Assembly: GCA_037134695.1 (NCBI GenBank)
Contig: JBAXLU010000001.1
Coordinates: forward strand, 11,551 to 75,550
Direction: 5' to 3'
DNA length: 64,000 nt
DNA from: Candidatus Nomurabacteria bacterium
Lineage (GTDB): Bacteria; Patescibacteriota; Minisyncoccia; Phycocordibacterales; UBA5272
A program made the translations under genes and the position numbers. Below the pieces are notes generated by a model that saw only the letters and a list, made by a program, of their open reading frames with translations, made no database searches and had not been told where the DNA came from. Within the stretch, counting starts at the first letter, position 1, and each line of letters starts with the position of its first letter. Of this stretch, positions 1 through 63,125 are shown in pieces.

Positions 1-184
1 TTTTTCCTGTGTCCCTTCGTAGCATAATCGCGAAGTGGGATCTGTAACAATTTTTTCTGTTTTATAATTCTCGTACTAATCTCAATTTTATTCTAATCGA
101 ACCAACCCAGATACATTTTACCAGCTTCGGGTTATAATTTCTCTAACTCCTAATTTATCCCGCCAAGGCGGTGACTCCTAACTC

Positions 185-1144: not shown

Positions 1145-1147
1145 AGT

Positions 1148-2473
1148 TTAAATCCCACTTTTACTTAAAAGTACTTTAAAAGTTTTAAGAATTATTGCGA
1201 TGTCTAACATTAGATTACTGTGTTCAAGATAATACATATCATAAGCAAGCTTTGTTGACGTTTGTTTAATGTCTATACCAAACTTCGGTGCCTCATGTTG
1301 TTGTACTTGTGCCCAACCAGAAAGTCCAGGACGAACCATATGTCTTATATTATAAAATGGAATAGTTTTGTTATATTCCTCTACAAGATTTGGTGATTCA
1401 GGGCGGGGGCCAATTAGTGATACATCACCATGTATCACATTCCAAAGTTGTGGTAATTCATCTAGTCTTGTCTTTCTTAAGAAACCCCCAACTTTACTTA
1501 TTTTTTTTGTTTCATTTAATTCGTTAGCTTTTTTATCTTCCATTGATCTAAATTTATATATCGGAATTAATTTACCGTGTTTACCTACACGATTATGAAT
1601 AAAGAAAATATTTCCACCATCATTTATTTTTATAGCTAAAATTACAAATGGATAAACAATAAGAGAAACTATAAAAGCCGGAATAGATAAAATTAAATCA
1701 ATAAATCTTTTTGCGCTGTCATATCTTTGAGAATTACTAATATAACGGAATACCCATTCTTGATTTATCAAATTAAGAGGGACCATGTCAAAGACGTCCT
1801 CATAAACGTCTACTATATCTAGCACAGCTTGACCTTCCTGTATCTCATTATAAAGATCTCCGAAATATGGCTTGATTCTATCATCACGCATATCGACAAT
1901 TACTGAGTTTGGTTTTGTTGTTCGAAGTACCGTACCCAAGCTTTCCATATTATATGTATCAACATCAATTGTTGCTATTAAGGTAATCCCAGTGTGGGGG
2001 TTTCTTGTTAGTTCTTCGACAAGATTTTTAAAAGCATCACCACTACCAACTAATATACTTTTTTGTTTTTTATAACGTAGAACTATAGAAAATGCGAAAT
2101 TTCTCCAAATACTTATTAGAATAGAAGAAATTATTATGTACAGAAGAAGAATTGTTTTAGGTGCAATTCCGAGCGTTGGAAGTGAATAGAAAATAATGAC
2201 AGCGCCAAGAGCTGAAAGTATTTGACTTGTTAATATTCTCTTACTTAGCTCCCTTATAATCCTTAATGTCGGTTTATCATATAGTCCATAACTATAAAAT
2301 ATCGCGACGCTTACAGCAATTACAAGAGAAAAAGATGGAATAAAGCTAATAAAATCAAGGAAATTAGGTATTTCTCTAGTACGTAAAAAAAGTGCCCCGT
2401 ATAAAGATAAAAATAAAACGCTACAATCCACAATAAAAAGTAAAAGTCGTCCAGGTGTATGTCTTATTATCAT
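1148..2473 (-). CDS. polyprenyl-phosphate sugar phosphotransferase (bacterial sugar transferase, WbaP/EpsL-like)
   Basis: 441-aa ORF with N-terminal TM helices and a C-terminal bacterial sugar-transferase block (KFRSM...DELPQLWNV..GD.SLIGPRPE). Confidence 0.8.
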   Translation of the reverse strand: MIIRHTPGRLLLFIVDCSVLFLSLYGALFLRTREIPNFLDFISFIPSFSLVIAVSVAIFYSYGLYDKPTLRIIRELSKRILTSQILSALGAVIIFYSLPTLGIAPKTILLLYIIISSILISIWRNFAFSIVLRYKKQKSILVGSGDAFKNLVEELTRNPHTGITLIATIDVDTYNMESLGTVLRTTKPNSVIVDMRDDRIKPYFGDLYNEIQEGQAVLDIVDVYEDVFDMVPLNLINQEWVFRYISNSQRYDSAKRFIDLILSIPAFIVSLIVYPFVILAIKINDGGNIFFIHNRVGKHGKLIPIYKFRSMEDKKANELNETKKISKVGGFLRKTRLDELPQLWNVIHGDVSLIGPRPESPNLVEEYNKTIPFYNIRHMVRPGLSGWAQVQQHEAPKFGIDIKQTSTKLAYDMYYLEHSNLMLDIAIILKTFKVLLSKSGI

Positions 2474-2507
2474 ATATGTTAATATTACTTATATTACTAC
2501 TGTTAGC

Positions 2508-3611
2508 ATGAAAATACTATATCTCATAACAAAGTCGAATTGGGGAGGTGCACAAAGATATGTTTATGATTTGGCTGTAGCCTTTAAGTCTAAAGGATGT
2601 AATCCAATTGTGGCTTTTGGTGGACACGGACTTTTGGAAGAGAATTTAAATAAGGCTAATATTAAAACTGTATCTTTGAATAGTTTAATTCGTGATATAT
2701 CTTTAACAAAAGAAATTTTTGTAGTTAAAGAAATATATTCACTCATTAAAAAAGAGAAGCCAGATATTGTTCATCTTAATAGTTCTAAAGCGTCTGGCGT
2801 GGGGGCACTGATAGCTAGAATTTTAGGAGTTAAGAATATTATTGTAACCATTCACGGTGCACCATTTCGGGAAGATAGAAATATTATTTTAAAGAAAATT
2901 ATTTATTTTCTTACTTGGGTTACCTGTCTTTTGTCACATACAGTCATAACTGTCAGTAAACAAGATGAAGCTGATATAGGTACAATGTTTTTTATAAAGA
3001 AAAAATTAAAAACAATTTATCTTGGTCTCACTTATGACCCACCGCTAACTCGTATTACTCCAAAGTCTAAGGTCGTAAGAATAATTACTGTTGGGGATCT
3101 TACAAAAAATAAAGGCCATTTGTTTGCTTTACATGCTATTGAAAAATTAAGAGATAATAATGTTCCTTTTCATTACACAATTGTTGGAGAAGGGGAGGAA
3201 AGAAAAAGTTTAGAAGAATTTATTGCTTTTAAAAATTTAGGGGAATTTGTTGACCTGTTAGGCTATCAAGACGCTCGCTCTATTTTACATGAGTATGATT
3301 TATATTTACTTTCTTCTGTAAAAGAAGGATTGCCTTATATTTTACTTGAGGCTGGAAAGGCAATGCTTCCCGTAGTTGCCACAATAACAGGAGGTGTTCC
3401 TGAAATTATAAGACATGAAGAAACTGGTCTATTGGTTCAACCAAAAGATGTTGATTCTTTGACAAAAGAATTAAAGAGGCTTATTTCCGATAGGAAAATT
3501 GGCAAAAAGCTTGGACAGGGTTTACATGCTCATATTGTTCAGAATTTTTCACACAGTAAGATGTTGGTAGAAACTGCAAAGGTTTATGGCTTGATAAAAT
3601 CTAAAAAATAG
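2508..3611 (+). CDS. GT4-family glycosyltransferase
   Basis: 367-aa ORF; C-terminal EGLPYILLEAGKAMLPVVATITGGVPEII matches the GT-B/GT4 E-x7-E region. Confidence 0.8.
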   Translation: MKILYLITKSNWGGAQRYVYDLAVAFKSKGCNPIVAFGGHGLLEENLNKANIKTVSLNSLIRDISLTKEIFVVKEIYSLIKKEKPDIVHLNSSKASGVGALIARILGVKNIIVTIHGAPFREDRNIILKKIIYFLTWVTCLLSHTVITVSKQDEADIGTMFFIKKKLKTIYLGLTYDPPLTRITPKSKVVRIITVGDLTKNKGHLFALHAIEKLRDNNVPFHYTIVGEGEERKSLEEFIAFKNLGEFVDLLGYQDARSILHEYDLYLLSSVKEGLPYILLEAGKAMLPVVATITGGVPEIIRHEETGLLVQPKDVDSLTKELKRLISDRKIGKKLGQGLHAHIVQNFSHSKMLVETAKVYGLIKSKK

Positions 3612-4267
3612 TGTATAATTCCACAACTATGATGCAAATCACCACAGCGCCACGCGCACCAAAAGAAACAAAGAAAGATGGTTTTATTCCAGCTGTATAT
3701 TACGGCGCACAACAGGCCTCAACTCCTATTTTTATAGATTTTATTGAATTTAAGAAGGTTTTAGCAGACGCTGGTGAATCAAGTTCAATTACTCTTATTA
3801 CAGAGCATGGTAACGAAGTTGCTATGATTCAAGATGTTCAGCTTGATCCAGTAAAGGGTAACGCTGTGCATGCAGACTTTTACATTCTTAAAAAGGGACA
3901 AAAAGTACACGTTAAAACCCCAATTATTTTTGTTGGAGAGTCACAAGCTGTTAAAGAAGGTGGTGTGCTTGTAAAAGTAATGTATGAACTTTCTGTTGAA
4001 GGAGATCCAACTAAACTTCCTCATGAGTTCTCTGTAGATATTTCTGCTCTTGTTAATAAAGATAGTGTTATTCATGTAAAGGATTTGATTCTTCCAGCAG
4101 GTGTTGAGCTTTATCATGTAGATCCTCTAGATGCTGTTGTTTCTATTTCAGTTGCTCAGGAAGAAATTGCGATAGATGCTCCAGTTGCTGATTTATCAAC
4201 TATTGAAGTTGAAGCTAAAGGTAAGAAAGAAGGCGACGCGGAAGAAGGTGGAACAGACGCAGAATAA
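3611..4267 (+). CDS. rplY: 50S ribosomal protein L25 / general stress protein Ctc (long form)
   Basis: 218-aa ORF; N-terminus APRAPKETKKDGFIPAVYYG is typical L25/Ctc; acidic tail partly encoded by an ACGCAGAA/ACGCGGAAG repeat unit (4236-4275). Confidence 0.8.
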   Translation: MYNSTTMMQITTAPRAPKETKKDGFIPAVYYGAQQASTPIFIDFIEFKKVLADAGESSSITLITEHGNEVAMIQDVQLDPVKGNAVHADFYILKKGQKVHVKTPIIFVGESQAVKEGGVLVKVMYELSVEGDPTKLPHEFSVDISALVNKDSVIHVKDLILPAGVELYHVDPLDAVVSISVAQEEIAIDAPVADLSTIEVEAKGKKEGDAEEGGTDAE

Positions 4268-4293
4268 CGCGGAAAAATTCAAAAAAATACTAA

Positions 4294-4325
4294 AAGCGCG
4301 ACCTTCGGTCGCGTTTTTGTATTTT
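4294..4325 (+). terminator. intrinsic terminator after rplY
   Basis: hairpin GCGCGACC-TTCG-GGTCGCG followed by TTTTTGTATTTT. Confidence 0.55.
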
Positions 4326-4413
4326 AATTGAAAATTGGAAATCAAAAACCTGCCTCGCCGGCAAGGCGGGTTAAAAATTCCCCCGCCTCAAGCAGGGATG
4401 CTATACTATATGT

Positions 4414-5766
4414 ATGAGAAATCGTTTCGCTATTTTTGTTTTTGCTATTTTATTTGCACTTGTACCTATACAAGGAAATATACATGTTTTTGCTCAAACA
4501 CGAGCAGAGCTTGAAAATGATTTGGCAAATTTGGAAGCTCAAATAAAAGCCTTAACAAACAGTATTACGGAAACAAAACAACAAGGAGTATCACTTAAAA
4601 ATGATATTTCTGTTTTAGCTAAAAAAATTGAACAAAGTAAATTAAAAATAAAAGCTCAAGATGCAGCCATTGCAAGACTTACTCAAAATATTTCAGAAAA
4701 AGATAGGACATTGAATTCTCTTAATGACAAAATGGATAGAGAGAAGGACTCTCTTGCCCAGATTATGAGGAAGACAAGATATTTAGAACAATATTCTTTG
4801 CTTGATTTTGGTCTTCAGTCAGATAGTTTGTCTACTTTCTTTTCTGATGCAGATTCCTTCTCCACTCTTAATCGTGCTTTAACTAAAAGTTTTGAAGATA
4901 TTCGTAATACAGAAGATGAGATAAACCAAGTTAAAATTCAGCTTGAAGATTCAAAAGATGAAGAAACTCAAAAGAAATTAGCCCAACAAGCTGTAAAAAA
5001 ACAAGTTGAATTAAATCAAAAAGAAAAAAATAGTTTACTTACTATTACAAAAAATCAAGAAGCGCAATATAAAAAAGTTTTAGCTGATCGTGAAAAAGAA
5101 GCAGCCACAATACGAGGAAGATTATTCGAACTTCGTGACGCTGGAAGTATTTCTTTTGGACAAGCTTATGATTTTGCTCTAGTTGCTAGTAAATCAACAG
5201 GCGTTCGCCCGGCACTTATCCTTGCAATTCTAATGCAAGAGTCTTCTTTGGGTATTAATGTTGGGGCATGCTATCTTCGTGATTATTCTACTGGTGACGG
5301 TGTTGGTATAAAAACTGGTGATATAAAAAGACGTGTAATGCATCCAACTCGTGATGTTCCAGTGTTTACGTCATTCCTTGGTAAACTTGGACGTGACCCA
5401 CAACAAACACCGGTCTCTTGCTGGATACCAATGTACAGTAAAGGAAGTCCAAGTGGATGGGGTGGAGCAATGGGTCCGTCACAGTTTATTCCGTCCACAT
5501 GGCAGCTTTTTGAAAATAGAATTGAGACTATAACAGGAGCCTCTGTTGCTGATCCTTGGAAACCATATCATGCAATTACCGCCACTTCTCTTTATTTGGC
5601 TGATTTAGGTGCAGTTACAGGTAATGAAGTGTCTGAAAGAAATGCTGCATGTAAATATTATTCTGGGAGGTCTTGTTCATCCTCATCTGCCGGTGCTGGT
5701 TATGGAAATTCCGTTATGAAAAAACTTTATAGTATGCAGGCAGATATCGACAAGCTACAAAGATAG
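4414..5766 (+). CDS. secreted coiled-coil protein with C-terminal lytic-transglycosylase-like (SLT) domain
   Basis: 450-aa ORF; signal peptide MRNRFAIFVFAILFALVPIQG; long heptad-like region; C-terminal ILMQESS...GAMGPSQFIPSTW resembles SLT catalytic and substrate motifs. Confidence 0.55.
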   Translation: MRNRFAIFVFAILFALVPIQGNIHVFAQTRAELENDLANLEAQIKALTNSITETKQQGVSLKNDISVLAKKIEQSKLKIKAQDAAIARLTQNISEKDRTLNSLNDKMDREKDSLAQIMRKTRYLEQYSLLDFGLQSDSLSTFFSDADSFSTLNRALTKSFEDIRNTEDEINQVKIQLEDSKDEETQKKLAQQAVKKQVELNQKEKNSLLTITKNQEAQYKKVLADREKEAATIRGRLFELRDAGSISFGQAYDFALVASKSTGVRPALILAILMQESSLGINVGACYLRDYSTGDGVGIKTGDIKRRVMHPTRDVPVFTSFLGKLGRDPQQTPVSCWIPMYSKGSPSGWGGAMGPSQFIPSTWQLFENRIETITGASVADPWKPYHAITATSLYLADLGAVTGNEVSERNAACKYYSGRSCSSSSAGAGYGNSVMKKLYSMQADIDKLQR

Positions 5767-5879
5767 TCTATAAAGTTGAAAGTCTATAAAGTGGTTGCGA
5801 AATTCCTTTTAACCTTAAGGACTTTATATACTTTTGACTGGTTGCAGGATGCAACTAAATATGTTATTATAGGCCGACT

Positions 5880-6086
5880 ATGAAAGCAGATATTCACCCA
5901 ACATATTATACAAACGCTACAGCAACTTGTGCTTGTGGTGCCACTTATAGTGTTGGTTCAACACAAGAAAAAATAGAAGTTGAAATCTGTCAGGCTTGCC
6001 ATCCATTCTATACAGGACAGGATAAAGTACTTGACTCTACCGGCCGCGTTGATAAGTTTAAGAAGAGAATGGCTGCTAAAAAGTAG
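5880..6086 (+). CDS. rpmE: 50S ribosomal protein L31
   Basis: 68-aa ORF MKADIHPTYY...C..C....CHPFYTG, canonical L31. Confidence 0.9.
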   Translation: MKADIHPTYYTNATATCACGATYSVGSTQEKIEVEICQACHPFYTGQDKVLDSTGRVDKFKKRMAAKK

Positions 6087-6257
6087 TCCATCTACTTTGT
6101 TGTGGAGCCTCTTTCGCTCGTCATCGTACTATTAAGTACGTCTCCTCGCTCACTTCTCCACGCCTCGTATCTGAACCATTTTTAGCAGCCATTATGGCTT
6201 GCTTTTTGGTATACTACAAAGCATCTAACTTTCAACTTTACGAACTTTATAAACTTT

Positions 6258-7226
6258 ATGGACTTATCTGACTTCAAATTAAATCCTCGCACAACATATC
6301 TCGCACAAGAATACGAGAGACTTTTAAATGCAAAAGAAGAAGCCGAAACTTTACTCGCCGACGATTCAATGAAAGAATTAGCTGAATCAGAAATCGCTAC
6401 TCTTACTCCACAATTAGAATCACTTTGGAAACAAATGGAAGAGACGGCAGAAGTTGCAAAAGAAGTAGAGGCTGCACCCAAGGCAATGATATTAGAAATT
6501 CAGGGTGGGGCAGGGGGTGATGAATCATCACTCTTTGCGGCTGAGCTTGCTTTAATGTATCAAAATTATGCAGAACAGCGTGGTTGGGGATGGAATAAAT
6601 TAGATGAATCTGTATCGGACGTTGGTGGATACAAAGATGTATCTTTTGAAGTAAAAGGAAAAGGTTGTTATGAAGCGTTAAAATTTGAAACTGGAGTGCA
6701 TCGTGTTCAGCGTATTCCAGAAACAGAAAAGAATGGTCGTGTACACACTTCAACAGTTACAGTTTCTGTAATGCCAATTCGTGCTACAACAAAAGTAAAT
6801 ATTCCAGCTAGTGATTTGGAATTCGAAACATCTCGCTCAGGTGGTGCCGGCGGACAGAATGTTAACAAAGTTGAAACTGCTGTGCGTATTATTCACAAGC
6901 CGACAGGTATTGCTATTCGCTGTACGATTGAGCGTTCTCAGTTAAAAAATCGCGAGCGTGCACTAGAAATGCTTCAAGCAAAATTAGATCAGCTTGCCCA
7001 AGAAGAAGATGATAAGAAACATTCAGATGAGAAACGTTCTCAAGTAGGAACGGGGGATAGAAGTGAAAAGATTCGTACATATAATTTTCCACAAGATAGA
7101 ATTACCGATCACCGTATTCGTCAGTCATGGCACGGGCTTCCAAAGATAATGGAAGGTCAAATGGGTCCTATAGTTGAGGCACTACAGAATTTTACCGGTG
7201 AGTTCGGAACAGACGAGGAGGAATAA
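6258..7226 (+). CDS. prfA: peptide chain release factor 1
   Basis: 322-aa ORF with GGQ motif (SGGAGGQNVNK) and an RF1-type tripeptide region (RIPETEKNGRVHTS, PxT-like, not the SPF of RF2). Confidence 0.8.
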   Translation: MDLSDFKLNPRTTYLAQEYERLLNAKEEAETLLADDSMKELAESEIATLTPQLESLWKQMEETAEVAKEVEAAPKAMILEIQGGAGGDESSLFAAELALMYQNYAEQRGWGWNKLDESVSDVGGYKDVSFEVKGKGCYEALKFETGVHRVQRIPETEKNGRVHTSTVTVSVMPIRATTKVNIPASDLEFETSRSGGAGGQNVNKVETAVRIIHKPTGIAIRCTIERSQLKNRERALEMLQAKLDQLAQEEDDKKHSDEKRSQVGTGDRSEKIRTYNFPQDRITDHRIRQSWHGLPKIMEGQMGPIVEALQNFTGEFGTDEEE

Positions 7227-7276
7227 TGTAAAGCAAAATATGGTATTATTATATATATAAATAATAATTTTTAACC

Positions 7277-8026
7277 ATGTACTATATCATTCTTGTCGTC
7301 ATTGTTCTCCTCGGGCTTTCCCTCCGTGTTGTTAAAGAATATGATAGAGGGGTCATTTTCTTTTTAGGTAAATGTACTGGCGTGAGAGGTCCTGGACTTA
7401 TTATTCTTATTCCTATTTTTGAACAAATGACAAAGGTTGCACTTCGTACCATTACGATGAATATACCTTCTCAAAAAATTATTACACGCGATAATGTGTC
7501 TATAGATATTGCTGCAGTTGCTTATTATCATGTTGTTGATCCACAAAAGTCAGTTGTTGCAATTGAGAATGTGTATGATGCAGTAAATCAGATTAGTCAG
7601 ACAACAGTGAGAAATATTGTTGGACAATTTCAACTTGATCAACTTCTTTCACAAACAGTAGATATCAATCAACAAATTAAATCAGTCATCGATGCACACA
7701 CAGAACCATGGGGAGTAGAAGTGACGGCTGTTGAAATTAAAGACATTACATTACCTGATAATATGCAACGTGCGATGGCAAAGGAAGCAGAAGCAGAAAG
7801 AGAGAGACGAGCAAAGATAGTAGCAGCACAAGGGGAATTTGAGGCCGCGGTGAAGCTCGGAGAAGCGGCAGATATCATTTCTCTTCATCCTGTAGCACTT
7901 CAACTGCGCACACTACAAACTATGGCAGAAATTAGTGTAGAAAAGAATTCAACAATTATTTTCCCAGCACAGTTTATGACGACCGTTAATGAAGCAATTT
8001 CTATGATACGAGGAGATGTGAAGTAA
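7277..8026 (+). CDS. SPFH/band-7 (stomatin/prohibitin-like) membrane protein
   Basis: 249-aa ORF, N-terminal TM helix, SPFH core, C-terminal [22 protein letters not shown] coiled coil. Confidence 0.75.
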
Positions 8027-10489: not shown

Positions 10490-10565
10490 GCCGCTTTAGC
10501 TCAGTTGGTAGAGCAACGGTTTTGTAAACCGTAGGTCCTCAGTTCGAATCTGAGAAGCGGCTCCA
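10490..10565 (+). tRNA. tRNA-Thr (anticodon UGU), CCA encoded
   Basis: hand-folded cloverleaf: acceptor GCCGCTT/AAGCGGC, D-arm GCTC-AGTTGGTA-GAGC, anticodon arm ACGGT-TTTGTAA-ACCGT, T-arm CTCAG-TTCGAAT-CTGAG, then TCCA. Confidence 0.85.
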
Positions 10566-10604
10566 TAAATAATGGTGGTAGCCTTATTTATTGCCGATTC
10601 AACA

Positions 10605-10744
10605 AATCAGCCTGCGCTGATTTGTGGCAGATTCGAATGGGCGCAGTGATGTTTCGCTAGCAAGCGAAACCACGAGCGGCGGGCTGCGAGTCTTGTGAGC
10701 GACGGCGAACAAGAACTTGTAGCCGAATCTGAGAAGCGGCTCCA
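10605..10744 (+). repeat. tRNA-adjacent structured element, copy A (ends with a 21-nt exact copy of the tRNA-Thr 3' end)
   Basis: ~80% identical to 53211-53342; hairpin AATCAGC-CTGC-GCTGATT, conserved core GGCAGATTCGAATGGGC..CTAGCAAG..AAACCACGAGCGGCGGGCTGCGAGT, second hairpin TCTTGT..ACAAGA, then CTTGTAGCC + CGAATCTGAGAAGCGGCTCCA (= 10545-10565). Confidence 0.55.
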
Positions 10745-10752
10745 ATACAGAT

Positions 10753-12890: not shown

Positions 12891-13754
12891 ATGGCCGTTC
12901 ATAAATTTCATTTTTATGATAAAATGAAATTTATGAACGGCCATCTCCACCCCATTACTCTCGCAGTTGCACGTATTTCCGACATCTTTTCCAAGATGGG
13001 TTTTGATACAGTTGATGGTCCAGAGCTAGAAGATGAATGGCACAATTTTGATGCACTAAACGTTCCAGCTGATCACCCAGCGAGAGATATGCAGGATACC
13101 TTCTTCATCAGAATGGGTACTGATGAAGCGCAGACTAACGCAGAACGGACGCAGAAGGTCGCAGAAGGAATACAAAGGACAGGCATTAATAAATTCGGTG
13201 AACCCATGGGCTATGTTCTTCGTACACATACTAGTAACATGCAGATCCGCACTATGGAAAAATATACAGCGGAAGGTAAAGAATTGCCTATTGCTATTTG
13301 TTGCCCGGGAAAAGTTTTTCGCAATGAAGCAACAGACGCAACCCACGAAGCACAATTTCATCAAATAGAAATGTTATATGTTGCAAAAGATGCATCACTA
13401 GCTATGATGATAGGTGTAATTGAAAAGTTTTTCTCAGAATTTTTTGGAACAGATTTAGTGATTAGACTTCGTTCAAGTTATTTTCCATTCGTTGAGCCGG
13501 GCAATGAAGTGGATATGCAATGTTTTAAGTGTAAAGGTAGTGGTTGTAATATTTGTAAACAAACTGGTTGGATAGAAATAGGTGGTGCTGGAATGGTGCA
13601 TCCAAAAGTATTAGAAGCAGGAGGAATTAATCCAGCTGATTATCGTGGTTTTGCTTTTGGTTGTGGTATAGACAGAATGGTAATGCTTAAATATGGAATT
13701 GAAGATGTTCGTCTTTTGTATAATGGAGATTTAAGAGTGGTCAATCAATTTTAA
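12891..13754 (+). CDS. pheS: phenylalanine--tRNA ligase alpha subunit
   Basis: 287-aa ORF; class II motifs (LRTHTS, FRNEATDATHEAQFHQIEM, GAGMVHPKVL, GFAFGCGIDRM); alternative start at 12927; carries an in-frame short-repeat insertion at 13127-13185. Confidence 0.85.
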   Translation: MAVHKFHFYDKMKFMNGHLHPITLAVARISDIFSKMGFDTVDGPELEDEWHNFDALNVPADHPARDMQDTFFIRMGTDEAQTNAERTQKVAEGIQRTGINKFGEPMGYVLRTHTSNMQIRTMEKYTAEGKELPIAICCPGKVFRNEATDATHEAQFHQIEMLYVAKDASLAMMIGVIEKFFSEFFGTDLVIRLRSSYFPFVEPGNEVDMQCFKCKGSGCNICKQTGWIEIGGAGMVHPKVLEAGGINPADYRGFAFGCGIDRMVMLKYGIEDVRLLYNGDLRVVNQF

Positions 13755-13756
13755 TT

Positions 13757-15721
13757 ATGAAATTTTCTAAAGCGTGGTTACAAGATTATATTGTCGAGAC
13801 ACTTCCAGAAGATGGTGTGATTTCAGAGGCTTTTAATAAAAAATCTTTTGAAGTTGAAGAAACGCGGACTATCGCGGAACAAACGCAGAATGACGCGGAA
13901 GGAATACAAACTGACGATTATAAGGATACGGTTTTTGATATTAAAGTTTTACCAAATAGAGCCCACGATGCATTAGGCCACAGGGGTATGGCCCGTGAAC
14001 TTTGTGCAGATTTTGGTTTTACATTTAAGGAAGATGAGAGAATAAATAAAAACGAATCTTTTTTTGACTCAACTATTCCGGCTCCAGCAGTTTCAATAGA
14101 AAATGGTGAAAAATGTACTCGTTTTATGGGAATAAGAATAGATGGTGTAATGGTCACAGAAAGCCCAAAATGGCTCAGAGAAAGGCTTGAATCTATAGGA
14201 CAGCGAAGTATTAACAATATTGTTGATATCACTAACTATGTGCAGTTTTCGCTCAATAAGCCTATGCATGCTTATGACACAAGGAGTATTAAGGGTATTT
14301 TGGGTGCGCGCGTAGCGCGCACTGGTGAGATGCTAGTTACTTTGGATGAAAAGTCACTTAATCTTGATACTCAAACTCTTGTAATTGTAGATGATGAAAA
14401 AGTTCTAGGGCTAGCTGGAATAAAAGGAGGAAAATTTAGTGGTATACAATCTGATACAACAAGTGTTATTTTAGAGAGTGCAAATTTCGAACCAACCCTT
14501 ATCCGCAAGACTTCACAGAAATATGATTTAAGAACAGATGCTTCAAAACGTTTTGAAAATGGAATTGCAAACTCTTTAATTGAAGAAGGTTTATATATGA
14601 CCGCAAATCTAATTAAAGAATTATGTGCTGATGCGAAGGTTTCACTTGTAACAGATATTTATCCAAAGGTAGATGAGATATTTTCATTATCTGTTTCACT
14701 TGATGAAATTAATGCAATATTAGGTACAAAATATTCTAGGGAAGAAGTAGAAGAAACATTTAAAAAACTTTTATTTAAATTTACGACAAAAGGAAATGTT
14801 TATACAGTTGAAGTTCCATCTGAAAGACTAGATATACGAATTAAAGAAGATGTCACAGAAGAAGTGGGACGTATTATTGGATATGACAAACTTATACCAA
14901 CTCTTCCTGTTTTAAATCGCGTAGGTCTTCCTCATAAGAGAATGTTTTATGAAAATAAAATAAGAGAAATTTTAGTGAGAAATGGTTTCTCTGAAGTCAT
15001 GACTTATACTTTTGGTGATCAGGGTGAGGTGGAACTTGTAAAAGGATTGGCTCTAGATAAAGAAAAACTTCGTGACAGTTTAGGTAATGGTATATTAAAT
15101 TCTCTATCATTAAATCTTTACAACGCACCACTTCTCGGTGAAAAAACAATTAAGATTTTTGAAATTGGGAATGTTTTTGGAAAAGATACAGAGACAAGAC
15201 ATTTATCTCTTGCAATTGATGACGGTGCGAAGAAAAGTAATTTCACAGATGGAGTCGATATGATATTAGTTGAAATTAAACGCACTTTAGAATTGCCATC
15301 ACTTGAATGTACAACAGTTTCAACTAAACCTTATGTTATTGAAATTGATTTTGATACAATGATTGCATCACTTCCGGAGCCTACAAATTATGAAGCGCCT
15401 ACATTCACGTCTTTACCTTTCGTTAATTACAAATCAGTCTCGTCTTATCCGTTTATTGCCCGTGATATTGCTATGTGGGTACCTGCTGTTACAACATGGG
15501 AGAGTATCAATAATCTTTGTGCTGAAGTACGGAATACTCTTGTTACTCGTGTTGATCTTTTTGATACTTTCACGAAAGAAATAGAGGGCATAAGAAAAAC
15601 TTCTTTCGCATTTCGCTTAGTTTTTCAAAGTTATGAAAAGACATTAACAGATGAAGAGGTGAATGAAATGATGGAAGCTTATTATAAAGTTTTTAAGGAA
15701 AAAGGTTACGAGATTCGCTAA
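13757..15721 (+). CDS. pheT: phenylalanine--tRNA ligase beta subunit (short form lacking N-terminal OB domain)
   Basis: 654-aa ORF directly after pheS; B3/B4 and B5 and C-terminal anticodon-binding-like regions recognisable; in-frame short-repeat insertion at 13866-13912. Confidence 0.8.
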   Translation: MKFSKAWLQDYIVETLPEDGVISEAFNKKSFEVEETRTIAEQTQNDAEGIQTDDYKDTVFDIKVLPNRAHDALGHRGMARELCADFGFTFKEDERINKNESFFDSTIPAPAVSIENGEKCTRFMGIRIDGVMVTESPKWLRERLESIGQRSINNIVDITNYVQFSLNKPMHAYDTRSIKGILGARVARTGEMLVTLDEKSLNLDTQTLVIVDDEKVLGLAGIKGGKFSGIQSDTTSVILESANFEPTLIRKTSQKYDLRTDASKRFENGIANSLIEEGLYMTANLIKELCADAKVSLVTDIYPKVDEIFSLSVSLDEINAILGTKYSREEVEETFKKLLFKFTTKGNVYTVEVPSERLDIRIKEDVTEEVGRIIGYDKLIPTLPVLNRVGLPHKRMFYENKIREILVRNGFSEVMTYTFGDQGEVELVKGLALDKEKLRDSLGNGILNSLSLNLYNAPLLGEKTIKIFEIGNVFGKDTETRHLSLAIDDGAKKSNFTDGVDMILVEIKRTLELPSLECTTVSTKPYVIEIDFDTMIASLPEPTNYEAPTFTSLPFVNYKSVSSYPFIARDIAMWVPAVTTWESINNLCAEVRNTLVTRVDLFDTFTKEIEGIRKTSFAFRLVFQSYEKTLTDEEVNEMMEAYYKVFKEKGYEIR

Positions 15722-19580: not shown

Positions 19581-21752
<2,172 letters not shown>

Positions 21753-21756
21753 AAAT

Positions 21757-21790
21757 AAAAATCACCGCATATGCGGTGATTTTTGTTTTT
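21757..21790. terminator. bidirectional terminator between gyrB and a hemerythrin gene
   Basis: perfect palindrome AAAATCACCGCAT|ATGCGGTGATTTT flanked by A/T runs; a near-copy sits at 22885-22921. Confidence 0.6.
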
Positions 21791-22214
21791 ACTTCAAGCC
21801 GTGCTCATTAAAAAATAGAGAGTACTTTTTATCCATTGAAAGAATATGTTCAAATAGCCAGTTTCCAGCAAATAAACCACTTTCTTTTAGTGTGTCTTTT
21901 AAATCATAATTTCTATTACTTACCTTAGAAATTAATTCAGCAGATTTTACTCTAAAGTGATCATGTGATTTTATATGATCTTCCATATGTGGAACATTGT
22001 ATTTTTCAAAATACTCTTCTTCTGTACCTAAATGATACTTCGCATAATCACCCAATCTATTGATGGCGAGTACCGCTTCTGCTTGTGTAAATTTTATTTT
22101 TCCTTCAGATAATTCTAATAAATTGTTACATAAATTAAAAAACTCTTTATGTTGATTGTCTATTATTTCAATTCCAACAGAGTATTCTTCTGTCCAAATA
22201 AGTTCTTCGTACAT
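21789..22214 (-). CDS. bacteriohemerythrin-like protein, paralog 1
   Basis: 141-aa ORF; WTEEYSVGIEIIDNQHKEFF plus downstream H..E, HF, H..D metal ligands; ~85% identical to 22921-23346. Confidence 0.7.
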   Translation of the reverse strand: MYEELIWTEEYSVGIEIIDNQHKEFFNLCNNLLELSEGKIKFTQAEAVLAINRLGDYAKYHLGTEEEYFEKYNVPHMEDHIKSHDHFRVKSAELISKVSNRNYDLKDTLKESGLFAGNWLFEHILSMDKKYSLFFNEHGLK

Positions 22215-22884: not shown

Positions 22885-22921
22885 AATAAAAATCACCGCA
22901 TATACGGTGATTTTTATTTTT
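22885..22921. terminator. bidirectional terminator (near-copy of 21757-21790)
   Basis: AAAAATCACCG-CATATA-CGGTGATTTTTATTTTTT. Confidence 0.5.
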
Positions 22922-23346
22922 TACTTCAAACCTTGTTCATTAAAAAACGGAGAGTATTTTTTATCCATAGACATAATATGTTCAAATAGCCAGTTTCCAG
23001 CAAATAAACCACTTTCCTTGAGTGTATCTTTTAAATCGTAATCTTTATTACTTACTTTAGCAATTAATTCAGAAGATTTTATTTTAAAATGATTATGTGC
23101 TTTTATATGATCTTCCATATTTTGTACATTATATTTTTCAAAATATTCCTCTTCTGTTCCTAAATGATATTTTGCGTAATCACCTAATCTGTTAATAGCA
23201 AGGACAGCTTCTGCTTGTGTAAATTTTGTTTTTCCTTCAGCTAATTCTAATAAATTGTTACATAAATTAAAAAACTCTTTATGTTGATTATCTATTATTT
23301 CAATACCAACAGAATATTCTTCTGTCCAAATAAGTTCATCGTACAT
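22921..23346 (-). CDS. bacteriohemerythrin-like protein, paralog 2
   Basis: 141-aa ORF, same motifs as paralog 1; part of a ~520-bp direct duplication. Confidence 0.7.
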   Translation of the reverse strand: MYDELIWTEEYSVGIEIIDNQHKEFFNLCNNLLELAEGKTKFTQAEAVLAINRLGDYAKYHLGTEEEYFEKYNVQNMEDHIKAHNHFKIKSSELIAKVSNKDYDLKDTLKESGLFAGNWLFEHIMSMDKKYSPFFNEQGLK

Positions 23347-30953: not shown

Positions 30954-31604
30954 ATGAAATTAAATCATCCATATTGTGATTATGTTTCCAAATTAAATGA
31001 CGAAAATGATGTTGATAAAATTTATCACGATAATCATTATGGTGTGAGAATAGAAGATGACAATGAATTATTTGGACGTTTGATTATGGAAATAAACCAA
31101 GCGGGACTTTCTTGGAGAACTATTTTAATGAAAGAGAGTGGGTTTAGAAAAGCTTATAATAATTTTAATATTAAAAAAGTTGCAAAATATAGTGAAAAAG
31201 ATTTTCTAAGGTTAATGAATGATGAAAAAATAATTCGTAATAAATTAAAAATAAATGCAGCAATATATAATGCACAAGAAATAATAAAAATTCAAAAAGA
31301 ATTTGGAAGTTTTAGAAAATGGTTGGATATAAAGGATAAGGAGATTCAGTCTAGTATTTGTGTCATTCCCACGAAGGTGGGAATCCAGTTTCGCACTCTT
31401 GCATTTAGAATACTGGATCCCCGCATTCGCGAGGATGACAATACAAAAGATAATAGAGATGAAATTAAAAACATGTGGTTAAAACTTTTTAAAAAACATT
31501 TTAAATTTGTTGGTGGAGAAATAGTTGGAGAGTTTTTATTAAGTCTTGATATATTATCTGGCAATCACGACAAGAATTGCATAGTGAAAAAGAAAAACAA
31601 ATAA
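30954..31604 (+). CDS. tag: DNA-3-methyladenine glycosylase I with in-frame palindromic-repeat insertion
   Basis: 216-aa ORF; HDNHYGVRIEDDNELFGRLIMEINQAGLSWRTIL and KFVGGEIVGEFL match Tag; ~25 extra residues (ICVIPTKVGIQFRTLAF...) encoded by palindromic repeat copy C1 at 31360-31389. Confidence 0.75.
   Translation: MKLNHPYCDYVSKLNDENDVDKIYHDNHYGVRIEDDNELFGRLIMEINQAGLSWRTILMKESGFRKAYNNFNIKKVAKYSEKDFLRLMNDEKIIRNKLKINAAIYNAQEIIKIQKEFGSFRKWLDIKDKEIQSSICVIPTKVGIQFRTLAFRILDPRIREDDNTKDNRDEIKNMWLKLFKKHFKFVGGEIVGEFLLSLDILSGNHDKNCIVKKKNK
31360..31389. repeat. GTGTCATTCCCnCGAAGGnGGGAATCCAGT palindromic repeat, copy C1 (inside tag)
   Basis: hairpin ATTCCCAC-GAAG-GTGGGAAT; related copies at 36602-36635, 62602-62635, 62986-63016 and 63022-63055. 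Confidence 0.6.
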
Positions 31605-31831
31605 AACTTTTAGCATAAAAATTGCAGCTTTTGACCTGTATTTTGTATCGCTAAAGGCTACAAGCTACAGGCTGCTAACTACCCCAGCACTTCAACCCAC
31701 CTATAGATTTTGTAAAGATTTTTCTAGAATCGGGCATATTTTTCAAGACCTTTTATGTCCCCAGTTTTGTGGTTGCAGATAAGGTGAAGTGGGGCAATAA
31801 TAAGGTACCGGGGGACACATATTTATTTTGG

Positions 31832-31893
31832 CTAACGAGGAGCTAAATAGAAAAGTAATCTTTTATATTTAGTCCGAGTGACGACATAAAAAG
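31832..31893. repeat. left copy of 62-bp inverted repeat bracketing the nrdDG-iscSU block
   Basis: CTAACGAGGAGCTAAATAGAAAAGTAATCTTTTATATTTAGTCCGAGTGACGACATAAAAAG; reverse complement of 37699-37760 with 2 mismatches. Confidence 0.7.
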
Positions 31894-32003
31894 TTTCAAC
31901 ATGACGTAGATTGCTATACGCCATTATGAACAAAGTAGTTTCCTAAAAAATAACTCGTCAGCTTGCTGCGAGGAAACTTTATTAACGTTATTCTTGTACA
32001 ATT

Positions 32004-36486: not shown

Positions 36487-36590
36487 CGACCTTCTTCGTT
36501 AAAGTGAATATTTTTTCGTCACTGTACTATTAAGTACACCTCCTCAAAAATCTTCACTTTGCCTCGAATCTCATTCAAGTCTGTAAGTTC
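36487..36590. repeat. 3'-UTR repeat family E, copy after iscU
   Basis: conserved CGTCACTGTACTATTAAGTACACCTCCTC and CCTCGAATCTCATTC blocks inside an AAAGTGAA/TTCACTTT inverted repeat; relatives at 6070-6192, 42617-42735, 47095-47215, 49032-49172, 60495-60625. Confidence 0.55.
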
Positions 36591-36649
36591 CGAAGACCCA
36601 GGTGTCATTCCCGCGAAGGCGGGAATCCAGTGTTGGCATTAAATAAATC

Positions 36650-37503: not shown

Positions 37504-37698
37504 TTAATTGTATTGGAATATATACTTGTATTTAAACAAACCCCATCTTTCTTTTTAAAAAGCGCATCGGAGGGCGGGTAGCCGAGATAGAGTGCCTTTT
37601 CTAGCAAGAAAAGGACACGGCTTTTTAAAATGAAAGATAAAACAAGAAAAGAAATTTGAATAAAGGTTTCTCGTAGTAATCTACGAGGCATTTAAACC

Positions 37699-37760
37699 TT
37701 TTTATGTCGTCACTCGGACTAAATATAAAAGATTACTTTTCTATTTAGGTCCTCGCTAGA
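37699..37760. repeat. right (inverted) copy of the 62-bp repeat bracketing the nrdDG-iscSU block
   Basis: reverse complement matches 31832-31893 at 60/62 positions. Confidence 0.7.
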
Positions 37761-37784
37761 CAAAATAAAATAAAGTATTAATTT

Positions 37785-45384: not shown

Positions 45385-45515
45385 GCTCCGCATTGGGCGC
45401 AGAAGTACGCAGACTTAACGCTGACTGACGCAGAAGAATGCAATTTGTATTTTTCTGCGACCTTCTGCGTTCGTTCAGCGATGTTCTGCGCTTAATGCGA
45501 AGCATTAAGAGCACG
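45385..45515. repeat. imperfect ~110-bp palindrome built from ACGCAGAAG/ACGCGGAAG units (family D)
   Basis: left arm GCGCAGAAGTACGCAGACTTAACGCTGACTGACGCAGAAGAATGC, right arm is its near reverse complement; same units occur in frame in rplY, pheS, pheT and gyrB; ORFs 45305-45592(-) and 45438-45698(+) here are probably not genes. Confidence 0.6.
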
Positions 45516-49032: not shown

Positions 49033-49172
49033 TTCCAAAAATGCTTCATCTACTTTGTTACGGGTCCCTGCTCGCTCGTCAATGTACTATTAAGTACTTC
49101 TTCTTTCAAAATTAACTTCGTCCAAGACGTGAACCTACTGGTTCAGCCTCGTATCTAAAGCATTTTTGGAAC
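49032..49172. repeat. 3'-UTR repeat family E, copy after lepA, bounded by 15-bp inverted repeats
   Basis: GTTCCAAAAATGCTT...CATCTACTTTGTT...CTCGCTCGTCAATGTACTATTAAGTAC...CCTCGTATCTAAAGCATTTTTGGAAC. Confidence 0.6.
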
Positions 49173-53084: not shown

Positions 53085-53157
53085 GCTGGGATAGCTCAGT
53101 TGGTAGAGCATTTGCCTGAAGAGCAAGGGGTCGGCAGTTCGAGCCTGCCTCCCAGCA
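53085..53157 (+). tRNA. tRNA-Phe (anticodon GAA)
   Basis: GCTGGGA-TA-GCTC-AGTTGGTA-GAGC-A-TTTGC-CTGAAGA-GCAAG-GGGTC-GGCAG-TTCGAGC-CTGCC-TCCCAGC-A. Confidence 0.85.
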
Positions 53158-53164
53158 CAAAAAA

Positions 53165-53199
53165 CAAAAACGAAGTCACATGACTTCGTTTTTGTATTT
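53165..53199 (+). terminator. intrinsic terminator after tRNA-Phe
   Basis: AAAAACGAAGTC-ACAT-GACTTCGTTTTT then GTATTTT. Confidence 0.7.
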
Positions 53200-53210
53200 T
53201 GTGCTGGGAG

Positions 53211-53342
53211 AGTACGACGCCTGCGCGTCGTACGTGTAGGTTCGAATGGGCCTAAGTGTGCTTTCACTAGCAAGAAAAACCACGAGCGGCGGGCTGCGAG
53301 TTCGTCGAGTGGCGACGAGATGAAACTTGTAGCCGAGCCTGA
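53211..53342 (+). repeat. tRNA-adjacent structured element, copy B
   Basis: hairpin GTACGACGC-CTGC-GCGTCGTAC, core GTAGGTTCGAATGGGCC..CTAGCAAG..AAACCACGAGCGGCGGGCTGCGAGT, hairpin TCGTCG-AGTGG-CGACGA, then AACTTGTAGCCGAGCCTGA; ~80% identical to copy A with compensatory changes in both hairpins. Confidence 0.55.
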
Positions 53343-53471
53343 TTAGTATTGTTTCGACTTTTCTTCACCTTTTCCTATTTTTGTGGTATTGTAATAATGC
53401 GTACAGTTCAATAGAGTAAATAGTCTTAAAATGACTTAATTTATCAGTCGTTTTCAGCATAGATATTCTAT

Positions 53472-62575: not shown

Positions 62576-62703
62576 ACATTAGATTTCAGATTACACAACT
62601 ACAACACTGGATTCCAACTTTCGTTGGAATGACACGTATCTTCTGGAAACTTAATTTTTTTACTCCTAACCTCTAACTCCTAACCCCTAACTAATTTAAA
62701 AAC

Positions 62704-62967
62704 ATGAAACCATTAAATACAAAATTACTCCGTCGACTTAAAATTATAGAAGGCCAAGTGCGTGGATTACAAGAAATGGTGACTAATGATGTTTATTGCA
62801 TTGATATCATTACTCAAACCTCAGCTGTTAAACAAGCACTTTCTGGTGTAGAAGATGCTCTTATGGAAAGTCATTTAGGAACTTGCCTTGTTCATCAAAT
62901 TAAAAAAGGAAAAGAAAGTAAGGCAGTAGAGGAAATGTTGAAAGTCTACAGATTGAAAAGACGATAA
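62704..62967 (+). CDS. csoR: CsoR/RcnR-family metal-sensing transcriptional repressor
   Basis: 87-aa ORF; LLRRLKIIEGQVRGLQEMV, conserved C (YCID) and H/C (HLGTCLVHQ) ligand positions. Confidence 0.7.
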   Translation: MKPLNTKLLRRLKIIEGQVRGLQEMVTNDVYCIDIITQTSAVKQALSGVEDALMESHLGTCLVHQIKKGKESKAVEEMLKVYRLKRR

Positions 62968-63125
62968 TAATTGTTTTAGTATTTTGTGTCATTCCAAACT
63001 TGATTTGGGATCCAGGTTTAAGACACTGGATTCCCATTTTCATGGGAATGACAATACGGGAGAAGAATTACATTAAGTGTTGTATTAAATAAAAACTATA
63101 AAATATAAAAATTAATTTTAAATAT

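What the first reader, a model, noticed from the sequence alone, without database searches (positions are those of the whole stretch)
31360..31389. Palindromic GTGTCATTCCC-CGAAGG-GGGAATCCAGT element inserted in frame in the tag gene; four more copies intergenic
Seen directly. The Tag ORF (3-methyladenine glycosylase I) contains GTGTCATTCCCACGAAGGTGGGAATCCAGT, with hairpin ATTCCCAC-GAAG-GTGGGAAT. It encodes ...ICVIPTKVGIQF... inside a region where this Tag is ~25 residues longer than typical Tag proteins. Near-identical elements occur at 36602-36635 (after iscU) and at 62602-62635 (inverted). A back-to-back inverted pair forms a larger palindrome at 62986-63055. This is a second, independent case in the window of a dispersed palindromic element tolerated inside a coding sequence. 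It points to an RPE-like phenomenon in this lineage.
Basis: partly seen in the sequence, partly recalled or inferred. Interest (0 to 1): 0.65.

Follow-up and report, generated by a model that had tools for sequence, protein, structure and literature searches.

The report
Known hairpin repeat inside tag gene
The 30-base palindrome in this DNA-repair gene is one copy of a hairpin repeat family already described across bacteria (CGTC-tagged REP, also called dRS3, RPE-6, NTS or SRM, the target of the Ssn single-strand nuclease); a head-to-head pair of copies sits in frame and is read as a floppy surface loop, which is a new host and a clear example rather than a new kind of element.

Summary
The insert is therefore a head-to-head dimer of two hairpin units (31361-31440), like the intergenic pair at 62987-63053.

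The unit has a TGTC tag, an 8-bp stem starting AT, a 4-nt loop and a CCA tail. This matches the published CGTC-1 REP family (Di Nocera 2013), which equals Neisseria dRS3 and Rickettsia RPE-6. It also matches the NTS/SRM motif bound and cut as single-stranded DNA by the GIY-YIG nuclease SsnA (Chenal 2025).

An exact-pattern scan found the unit in many phyla and in viral contigs. Eight Ssn-like genes lay in the fetched loci, six of them flanked on both sides by units with tags outward.

The window comes from a Candidatus Nomurabacteria (CPR) contig. Of 120 Tag homologues, 87 have a canonical 12-residue loop and 12 carry such dimers in that loop, from at least four independent insertions. AlphaFold models the insert as disordered. 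Stems changed by compensatory substitutions after insertion.

In-frame CGTC-REP dimers are already documented. Verdict: new member of a known kind. No ssnA was seen in the window.

The parts
30954..31604 (+). tag gene (DNA-3-methyladenine glycosylase I, 216 aa) that hosts the insert
   Evidence: ORF. Pfam PF03352, E 1.2e-38, with the match ending at residue 125. Identical to P0001, named as from Candidatus Nomurabacteria. The AF2 model matches solved Tag structures at TM 0.72-0.76 normalised by target length.
31329..31360 (+). about 31 extra nt upstream of the dimer (codons IKDKEIQSSI plus TG); origin unresolved (target duplication or co-transferred loop segment)
   Evidence: Filled versus empty alignment of window against L002. 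The canonical loop of the empty allele aligns downstream of the dimer. This segment is 63% identical to L001, against 88% for the gene.
31361..31388 (+). hairpin unit 1 in tag: TGTC tag, stem ATTCCCAC/GTGGGAAT, loop GAAG, tail CCAG; translated as (C)VIPTKVGIQ
   Evidence: The stem differs from the orthologous unit in L001 by two compensatory pairs.
31389..31412 (+). spacer between the two units (translated FRTLAFRI)
   Evidence: 68% identity to L001, against 88% for the gene core. Spacer length and sequence differ among orthologues.
31413..31440 (-). hairpin unit 2 in tag, inverted: TGTCATCCTCGCGAATGCGGGGATCCAG on the - strand; translated on the + strand as LDPRIREDD
Evidence: Exact match to the published SRM search pattern. 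91% identical to L001.
36603..36630 (+). single unit in the iscU-downstream intergenic region: TGTCATTCCCGCGAAGGCGGGAATCCAG
   Evidence: Matches the SRM pattern and the Neisseria NTS consensus at 27 of 28 positions. Present at the same site in L001 with a compensatory stem change. Absent in L002/L003, where the genes overlap, and in L004.
62607..62634 (-). single unit, inverted, in the intergenic region upstream of the small ORF at 62705-62967
   Evidence: Stem ATTCCAAC/GTTGGAAT, loop GAAA.
62987..63053 (.). intergenic head-to-head dimer: unit 62987-63015 (+, 5-nt loop CTTGA), 10-nt spacer, unit 63026-63053 (-, loop GAAA)
   Evidence: Folds as single-stranded DNA at -16.2 kcal/mol, z = -4.6.

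Best explanation
The 30-mer is one unit of the CGTC-tagged REP family. Its other published names are CGTC-1, Neisseria dRS3/NTS, Rickettsia RPE-6 and 'Ssn-related motif' (SRM). The tag insert is a head-to-head (tags outward) dimer of two such units.

Shown here:
- Each unit has an unpaired (T/C)GTC tag, an 8-bp stem beginning AT, a 4-5-nt loop and a CCA(G) tail.
- The two units in tag face each other across a 24-nt spacer. Five of the unit's six reading frames have no stop codon, so the dimer is read through. It adds a disordered loop between two helices of an otherwise intact Tag fold.
- The same motif occurs in many bacterial phyla and in viral contigs. Where a roughly 93-aa GIY-YIG gene of the Ssn type is present, it sits exactly where the dimer's spacer is, flanked by units with tags outward.

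Taken from the literature (Chenal 2025): SsnA binds the hairpin only as single-stranded DNA, only on the tagged strand, and cuts a few nucleotides 5' of the tag.

Inferred:
- The gene-less dimer is the non-autonomous counterpart of unit-ssnA-unit, in the way a REPIN relates to a RAYT.
- It spreads through a single-stranded DNA intermediate without target-site duplication.
- Copies that land in frame in a permissive surface loop survive selection.
- After insertion the hairpins are kept by compensatory change, either through selection by a binding protein or through gene conversion between copies, while the spacer drifts.
For: Family identity:
- The unit anatomy matches Di Nocera's CGTC-1 definition, including the TGTC variant and HH dimers.
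- 36604-36630 equals the NTS consensus CGTCATTCCCGCGMAVGCGGGAATCYRG over 27 of 28 positions. Two of six units match the SRM pattern exactly, against 0.1 expected.

Breadth:
Hosts include Nitrospirota, Bradyrhizobium, Massilia, Desulfobacterota, Planctomycetota, Chloroflexota, a Rickettsia endosymbiont and many CPR. It hit the limit again in viral contigs.

Hairpin selection:
- In 243 units the three inner stem pairs, which the search pattern did not constrain, are all Watson-Crick in 92%, with 9 different triplets.

Ssn link:
- Eight Ssn-like genes lie in the 240 loci. Six are flanked on both sides by units with tags outward, 1-35 nt from the start and stop codons.

Insertion rather than ancestral loop:
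- 87 of 120 Tag homologues have a 12-residue loop and 12 carry dimers.
- Insert-free sisters are very close in the protein core outside the loop: P0080 is 99% identical to insert-bearing P0036, and P0005 is 92% identical to the window protein. At the DNA level the window gene and its empty sister L002 are 90% identical.

Persistence:
- Window and L001 share one insertion. Between them, unit 1 changed CCCAC/GTGGG to CCCGT/ACGGG and the iscU unit changed CCCGC/GCGGG to CCCGT/ACGGG.

Protein tolerance:
- pLDDT is above 90 in the core and below 50 for residues 139-161. The phmmer alignment to solved Tags breaks at residues 124/178.

The phenomenon is general:
- In-frame units were confirmed by Pfam in TGT, Lgt, TruB, a class-I aaRS, a DNA methylase and others.
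Against: No ssnA-like gene was found in the 64-kb window, in the Tag loci or in 17 CPR loci. The partner protein in this lineage is therefore unproven, and the copies may be orphans.

Mobilisation of SRM dimers by Ssn has never been demonstrated. The 2025 paper shows cleavage and an effect on transformation, not transposition.

Four of the six window units have A/T-containing inner stems that fall outside the published SRM pattern. Chenal et al. report that changing the palindrome sequence while keeping the hairpin abolishes N. meningitidis SsnA activity, so these variants might not be substrates of a canonical Ssn.

The extra DNA in tag is 111 nt, more than the 80-nt dimer. The extra roughly 31 nt are unexplained.
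Confidence: 0.85

Rival explanations
1. The dimer is a classical MITE, that is, a deletion derivative of a DDE-transposase insertion sequence, with the 28-nt units acting as terminal inverted repeats.
For: It has TG...CA-type termini (TGTCA...TGACA), is about 80 nt long, has inverted ends and is dispersed in both orientations.
Against: 50 dimers from many phyla show no target-site duplication. The longest direct match between left and right flanks is 3.3 nt, against 3.24 +/- 0.12 for shuffled pairs. No transposase family recurs near the units in 120 loci. Units also occur singly, and each unit is itself a hairpin with covarying stems. The only gene found inside such a dimer is a GIY-YIG nuclease.
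Confidence: 0.04
2. The insert is kept because the encoded peptide (VIPxKxGIQ...LDxRxRxxD) gives Tag a useful new loop. On this view the nucleotide palindrome is incidental.
For: The insert is in frame and free of stop codons in 12 orthologues, and it persisted through speciation between window and L001.
Against: Different orthologues read the same unit in different frames: VIPAKAGIQ in most, but VSSSATTEDPV in L006 and L007. The segment is predicted to be disordered. The spacer peptide is not conserved. The substitutions are compensatory at the DNA level, which changes the peptide (TKV to VKT) while keeping the stem. The same DNA occurs in intergenic regions.
Confidence: 0.04
3. The units act at the RNA level, as transcript-stabilising or terminating hairpins or as regulators of translation, as has been proposed for REPs. 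The tag copy would then modulate tag expression.
For: The intergenic copies lie just downstream of genes (after iscU; around the ORF at 62705-62967). The loops are GNRA-like (GAAA, GAAG, GCAA) in most units.
Against: Units occur in both orientations relative to transcription. No T-run follows them. No Rfam family matches. SsnA does not bind the RNA form. An RNA role does not explain the conserved unpaired tag and tail, or the link to a DNA nuclease gene.
Confidence: 0.07

Closest known systems
NTS / Ssn-related motif (SRM) with the SsnA GIY-YIG single-strand nuclease (Chenal et al. 2025, Nat Commun 16:2388, PMC11893778)
   Same: The sequence is nearly identical: 36604-36630 equals the NTS consensus at 27 of 28 positions, and two units match the SRM pattern. 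The units form hairpins with an orienting 5' tag. The unit-ssnA-unit architecture was recovered independently in the fetched loci.
   Different: The host is a CPR (Nomurabacteria) genome, a group the main text of that paper does not mention. No ssnA was seen in the window. Four of six units have AT-richer inner stems outside the SRM pattern. The copy studied here is in frame inside a gene, whereas the paper reports only 2% of NTS inside genes in N. meningitidis.
CGTC-tagged REPs, family CGTC-1 (Di Nocera, De Gregorio, Rocco 2013, BMC Genomics 14:522, PMC3733652); equals Neisseria dRS3 and R. conorii RPE-6
   Same: The units have the tag (C/T)GTC, an 8-bp stem starting AT, a 4-nt loop and a CCA tail. 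HH dimers (tags outside) predominate. That paper also describes in-frame intragenic dimers encoding 20-30 aa in housekeeping and repair genes (uvrA, uvrB, truB, recB).
   Different: That survey found CGTC REPs in 5 phyla and no dedicated enzyme. Here the family is seen in CPR and many more phyla. A tag-gene loop is hit repeatedly. Post-insertion compensatory changes are documented.
Rickettsia palindromic elements (RPE-1 and others; Ogata et al. 2000, 2002, from my own knowledge and as cited in PMC3733652)
   Same: These are palindromic repeats inserted in frame in conserved genes, translated, and apparently tolerated as surface segments. In the Rickettsia endosymbiont locus L097, three units of this very motif lie inside a class-I aminoacyl-tRNA synthetase ORF.
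   Different: RPE-1 is a longer (about 100-150 bp), unrelated sequence family restricted to Rickettsia. Only RPE-6 and RPE-4 belong to the CGTC superfamily.
REP / REPIN elements with RAYT transposases (GTAG-tagged REPs)
   Same: They have the same logic: a short hairpin with an unpaired tetranucleotide tag, inverted dimers that can fold into a larger hairpin, a single small gene flanked by two units, and no target-site duplication.
   Different: The tag here is CGTC/TGTC rather than GTAG. The associated protein is a GIY-YIG nuclease, not an HUH tyrosine transposase. REP sequences are species-specific, whereas this unit is nearly identical across phyla.

Membership tests
CGTC-1 REP (Di Nocera 2013) | [quoted passage not shown] | tested here: met
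   All six window units begin with TGTC. Definition.
CGTC-1 REP (Di Nocera 2013) | 8-bp stem with complementary A-T at positions 1 and 2, and a 4-nt loop (5 nt in family 2) | tested here: met
   Stems are ATTCCNNN/NNNGGAAT with loops GAAG, GAAT, GAAG, GAAA, GAAA. Unit 62987 has the 5-nt loop CTTGA, which is CGTC-2-like. Units 31413 and 62987 each contain one G-T wobble.
CGTC-1 REP (Di Nocera 2013) | Short unpaired 3' tail fitting CCA | tested here: met
   All six units end in CCAG.
CGTC-1 REP (Di Nocera 2013) | Predominantly HH dimers (tags outside), with spacers mostly of 20-100 bp | tested here: met
   Both window dimers have their tags outside, with spacers of 24 and 10 nt. 50 such dimers occur in the fetched loci, with spacers (measured CCA to TGG) of 3-82 nt. 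Definition of HH.
NTS / SRM (Chenal 2025) | Match to NTS CGTCATTCCCGCGMAVGCGGGAATCYRG or to the SRM pattern HGTCWYN(0-2)YYVSBRHN(0-5)WNVSBRGN(0-2)RNCYNB | tested here: inconclusive
   Two of six units match SRM exactly (31413-31440 -, 36603-36630 +), against 0.1 expected. One unit matches NTS at 27 of 28 positions. The other four differ only at inner-stem S positions, with A/T pairs.
NTS / SRM (Chenal 2025) | Genome encodes a cd10448-type single-domain GIY-YIG (ssnA), typically flanked by the motif | not testable with these tools
   Only 64 kb of the genome is available. tblastn and an Ssn HMM find none in the window, the Tag loci or the CPR loci. In other genomes carrying the same motif, 6 of 8 Ssn-like genes are flanked on both sides.
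NTS / SRM (Chenal 2025) | Bound and cut as single-stranded DNA by Ssn, strand-specifically, a few nt 5' of the tag | not testable with these tools
   This needs a biochemical assay. Only the single-stranded DNA folding could be computed.
REP / REPIN-RAYT | GTAG tag and an IS200/IS605-like RAYT gene flanked by the repeats | tested here: not met
   The tag is TGTC. No recurrent transposase-like ORF lies near the units in 120 loci. The gene found between units is GIY-YIG.
DDE-type MITE | Target-site duplication flanking terminal inverted repeats | tested here: not met
   No excess of direct repeats between the flanks of 50 dimers.

The most novel reading that the evidence does not exclude
In CPR/Patescibacteria these dimers may not be inert relics. 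They would be an active, hairpin-selected system that repeatedly colonises one permissive loop of Tag. Four or more independent gains are supported, possibly with about 15 nt of target duplication or with allele-to-allele transfer of the filled loop. On this reading the stems are kept paired inside the coding sequence by a trans-acting single-strand DNA-binding nuclease that has not been identified in these genomes. That could be a divergent Ssn or another GIY-YIG protein, and it might be tied to the DNA-uptake lifestyle of CPR.
Probability: 0.2. Interest if true: 0.55.

Novelty: new member of a known kind. Interest (0 to 1): 0.3.

Why it matters
The result assigns an unannotated repeat in a candidate-phyla-radiation genome to a repeat family whose enzymology was worked out only in 2025. 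It extends that family to Patescibacteria and to viral contigs.

It also gives a clean natural experiment, with filled and empty tag alleles at 88-90% identity and one insertion followed through a speciation. This shows that the hairpins stay paired by compensatory change even when they are translated.

For annotation, it explains odd 'VIPAKAGIQ / LDSRLRGND / WIPAFAGMT' peptides in many predicted proteins, and it warns against reading such loops as functional domains. It does not reveal a new kind of element.

Tried and rejected
- A full-text search for the encoded peptides (IPAKAGIQ, IPAFAGMT, SRLRGND and others) and for 'palindromic element' with Patescibacteria found nothing. The family was reached only after a GIY-YIG gene was found between units.
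- The Rfam gathering scan of the window gave only RNase P RNA and tRNAs, with nothing at the units.
- Clustering all ORFs of 100 aa or more from 120 loci to find a recurrent neighbouring transposase gave only generic families such as kinases and ABC transporters. The small GIY-YIG cluster was the one signal.
- A test for target-site duplication and for palindrome extension beyond the tags, across 50 dimers, was negative.
- The apparent GTATT...AATAC extension and the 'KEI' duplication in some tag alleles are therefore lineage- or site-specific and remain unexplained.
- A single ancestral insertion in Tag was rejected. The canonical 12-residue loop is found in 87 of 120 homologues, and the insert-free sisters are very close. 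The NJ tree itself is poorly resolved, with core identities of 80-92%. For that reason I claim only four or more independent events, not the roughly 11 the tree suggests.
- I tested whether the 19-residue 'mid' loops are footprints of decayed dimers. The P0020 DNA shares only a 12-mer, AATACAAAAGAT, with the window's right junction, which is inconclusive.
- A search for ssnA in the window and in CPR loci found none. The L125 GIY-YIG looks YhbQ-like rather than Ssn-like.
- The supplementary tables of Chenal et al. are not held, so the CPR genomes in their survey could not be checked.
- QMITE (Coxiella) was considered from memory, but those papers were not opened after the Ssn paper settled the identity.

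Full report
**Observation.** The 30-mer GTGTCATTCCCACGAAGGTGGGAATCCAGT lies at 31360-31389. It is inside a 216-aa ORF (30954-31604, + strand) that is a clear DNA-3-methyladenine glycosylase I (PF03352, E 1e-38), and it reads ..ICVIPTKVGIQF... Allowing 3 mismatches, it recurs at 36602-36631 (+) and 62606-62635 (-), with none expected in shuffles. A looser pattern adds the pair at 62987-63015 (+) and 63026-63053 (-). The tag insert is therefore two inverted units separated by 24 nt, with the same architecture as the intergenic pair. As single-stranded DNA it folds into a cloverleaf of about -20 kcal/mol on either strand (z = -5.2 and -5.3).

**Source and orthologues.** The protein is identical to a database entry from a Candidatus Nomurabacteria (CPR/Patescibacteria) contig of 82 kb. 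Among the 120 best homologues, 87 have a 12-residue loop (xQxKExxxDKxx) between the helix ending in WLD and the helix starting with WLKLFKK. Thirteen have a 19-residue loop. Twelve have loops of 34-72 residues that contain VIPAKAGIQ...LDSRLRGND-type sequence.

DNA for eight filled and five empty alleles shows that every filled allele carries the same inverted dimer: TGTCAT[TC]C[CT]-stem-loop-stem-GG[AG]ATCCAG / spacer / reverse complement. The stem sequences differ between alleles but stay paired. The closest relatives lack the insert. Window and L002 are 90% identical at the nucleotide level, L007 and L130 88%, and the P0036 and P0080 proteins 99% in the core.

The insertion point and reading phase also differ between alleles. 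The distance from the WLD codon to TGTCA is 11 nt in L005 and L008, 31-32 nt in five alleles and 43 nt in L007. L006 and L007 read the unit in another frame, as VSSS..DPV. The core tree is poorly resolved, so I claim at least four independent insertions into this one loop and not more.

**Persistence.** Window and L001 share one insertion event, with 88% identity in the gene core. Between them the spacer is 68% identical. Unit 1 changed CCCAC/GTGGG to CCCGT/ACGGG, which is two compensatory pairs. The orthologous intergenic unit after iscU changed CCCGC/GCGGG to CCCGT/ACGGG. The hairpins are thus maintained after insertion, either by selection or by gene conversion between copies.

**Effect on the protein.** The AlphaFold model has a mean pLDDT of 86.8. 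The core is above 90 and residues 139-161 are below 50. The insert lies between helices 120-135 and 162-182. The model matches solved Tag structures at TM 0.72-0.76 normalised by target length. The sequence alignment to those structures breaks exactly at residues 124/178. All invariant Tag residues are retained. The consensus unit has no stop codon in five of its six frames, which explains why in-frame copies can survive.

**What the element is.** Hits came from Nitrospirota, Bradyrhizobium isolates, Massilia, Desulfobacterota, Planctomycetota, Chloroflexota, Bacteroidota, a Rickettsia endosymbiont, many CPR lineages and one MAG labelled Nanoarchaeota. A scan of viral contigs hit the limit too.

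In 243 units with a 10-nt inner segment that the pattern did not constrain, all three inner pairs are Watson-Crick in 92%. Nine different triplets occur, and most loops are of GNRA or GNRG type.

Clustering neighbouring ORFs revealed one specific partner, a roughly 93-aa GIY-YIG protein. In L080, L029, L128, L160, L204 and L207 its gene sits exactly where the dimer's spacer would be, with units 1-35 nt from the start and stop codons and tags outward.

**Literature match.** That lead reached two papers.

- Chenal et al. 2025 (PMC11893778) define the Neisseria NTS as CGTCATTCCCGCGMAVGCGGGAATCYRG, which contains dRS3, and a degenerate Ssn-related motif (SRM). They show that the 94-aa GIY-YIG protein SsnA binds the hairpin only as single-stranded DNA and on one strand, and cuts a few nt upstream. 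They report that 42% of ssnA homologues are flanked on both sides by the motif. They also discuss the IS-like and REP/RAYT-like architecture.
- Di Nocera et al. 2013 (PMC3733652) had classified the same repeats as CGTC-tagged REPs. Family CGTC-1 has a tag CGTC or TGTC, an 8-bp stem starting AT, a 4-nt loop and a CCA tail, occurs mostly as HH dimers with the tags outside, and equals dRS3 and R. conorii RPE-6. They documented in-frame intragenic dimers encoding 20-30 aa in uvrA, uvrB, truB, recB and other genes.

The window units meet each CGTC-1 criterion. Unit 36604-36630 equals the NTS consensus at 27 of 28 positions. Two of six units match the SRM pattern exactly, against 0.1 expected.

**Mechanism.**

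- Shown here: family identity, dimer anatomy, covarying stems, lack of target-site duplication, read-through as a disordered loop, and repeated independent presence in one loop.
- From the literature: Ssn recognises and cuts the tagged single strand.
- Inferred: the gene-less dimer is the non-autonomous counterpart of unit-ssnA-unit. It spreads through single-stranded DNA, and selection keeps only copies in permissive, in-frame positions.
- Open: no ssnA was found in the window, the Tag loci or 17 CPR loci. It is therefore unknown whether this lineage has the nuclease at all.
- Unexplained: the extra DNA in tag is 111 nt, against 80 nt for the dimer. The additional roughly 31 nt lie upstream of the dimer, while the orthologous loop lies downstream. 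This hints at a target duplication or at transfer of a filled loop between alleles.

**Generality.** Units lie in frame in other real genes in the fetched loci. Examples are TGT (Parcubacteria), Lgt (Kuenenbacteria), a glycosyltransferase and an O-antigen ligase (Patescibacteria), a DNA methylase (the MAG labelled Nanoarchaeota), an SLT-domain protein (Nitrospirae), TruB, and a class-I aminoacyl-tRNA synthetase in a Rickettsia endosymbiont. In CPR loci other than tag, 9 of 31 units lie inside long ORFs by a crude test, compared with the 2% reported for N. meningitidis.

**Verdict.** However, the element belongs to a family already described, named and partly characterised biochemically, and in-frame insertion of its dimers is already documented. 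What is new is the host group (CPR), the repeated use of one Tag loop, and the record of compensatory change after insertion. This is a new member of a known kind, of modest interest.

Noticed in passing
window 13121-13179, 13855-13913, 21440-21477, 4229-4287, 45453-45496(-): A second repeat family built of ACGCAGA/ACGCGGA motifs (about 40-55 nt). It lies in frame in a pheS-like ORF (..DEAQTNAERTQKVAEGIQ..), a pheT-like ORF (..[17 protein letters not shown]..) and a gyrB-like ORF (..[11 protein letters not shown]..). It also sits at the C-terminus of an L25-like ORF and inside the RNase P RNA call.
   Followed up: partly
window 10563-10745 and 53158-53345: A GC-rich element of about 180 nt, with an 88-nt core 76% identical between the two copies, lies directly after two tRNA genes (10490-10562 and 53085-53157). 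The first copy ends with a duplicate of the tRNA 3' end (GAATCTGAGAAGCGGCTCCA), as if a miniature element had integrated at the tRNA 3' end. There is no Rfam gathering hit.
   Followed up: partly
window 6079-6147, 36487-36590, 49037-49105: An element of about 70-100 nt with the palindromic core TCGTCAnnGTACTATTAAGTACnnCTCCTC. At least the 36487 and 49037 copies start directly after stop codons. The copy after iscU is conserved at the same site in L001 and L004, where L004 lacks the hairpin unit. It may be a terminator or a small RNA.
   Followed up: partly
window 31822-31899 and 37692-37769: A 78-nt inverted repeat, 94% complementary. One arm lies upstream of nrdD and the other upstream of the M3 peptidase gene, bracketing the nrdD-nrdG-iscS-iscU block.
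   Followed up: no
window 21780-22079 and 22912-23211: A 300-nt direct repeat (86%) that corresponds to two paralogous 141-aa ORFs on the - strand (21789-22214 and 22921-23346). Each is followed by the same hairpin, AAAAATCACCGCATATGCGGTGATTTTT.
   Followed up: no
L007 450-1160 (Tag orthologue P0036): Both hairpin units of this tag dimer carry an additional insert of about 30 nt inside their loops, giving a 72-residue protein loop. These are nested insertions into the element.
   Followed up: no
L253 944-1501 (P0020) and 12 other Tag homologues: Thirteen homologues have a 19-residue loop (xEDxKLKVEGGRNxDxKxx). The P0020 DNA shares the 12-mer AATACAAAAGAT with the window's right dimer junction. 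This may be a footprint of a decayed dimer, but the evidence is inconclusive.
   Followed up: partly
L097 (Rickettsia endosymbiont of Polydrusus tereticollis) 1-8000: Nine units of the same motif lie in 8 kb, several embedded in longer repeated blocks. Three are inside a 1137-codon open frame that matches a class-I aminoacyl-tRNA synthetase.
   Followed up: partly
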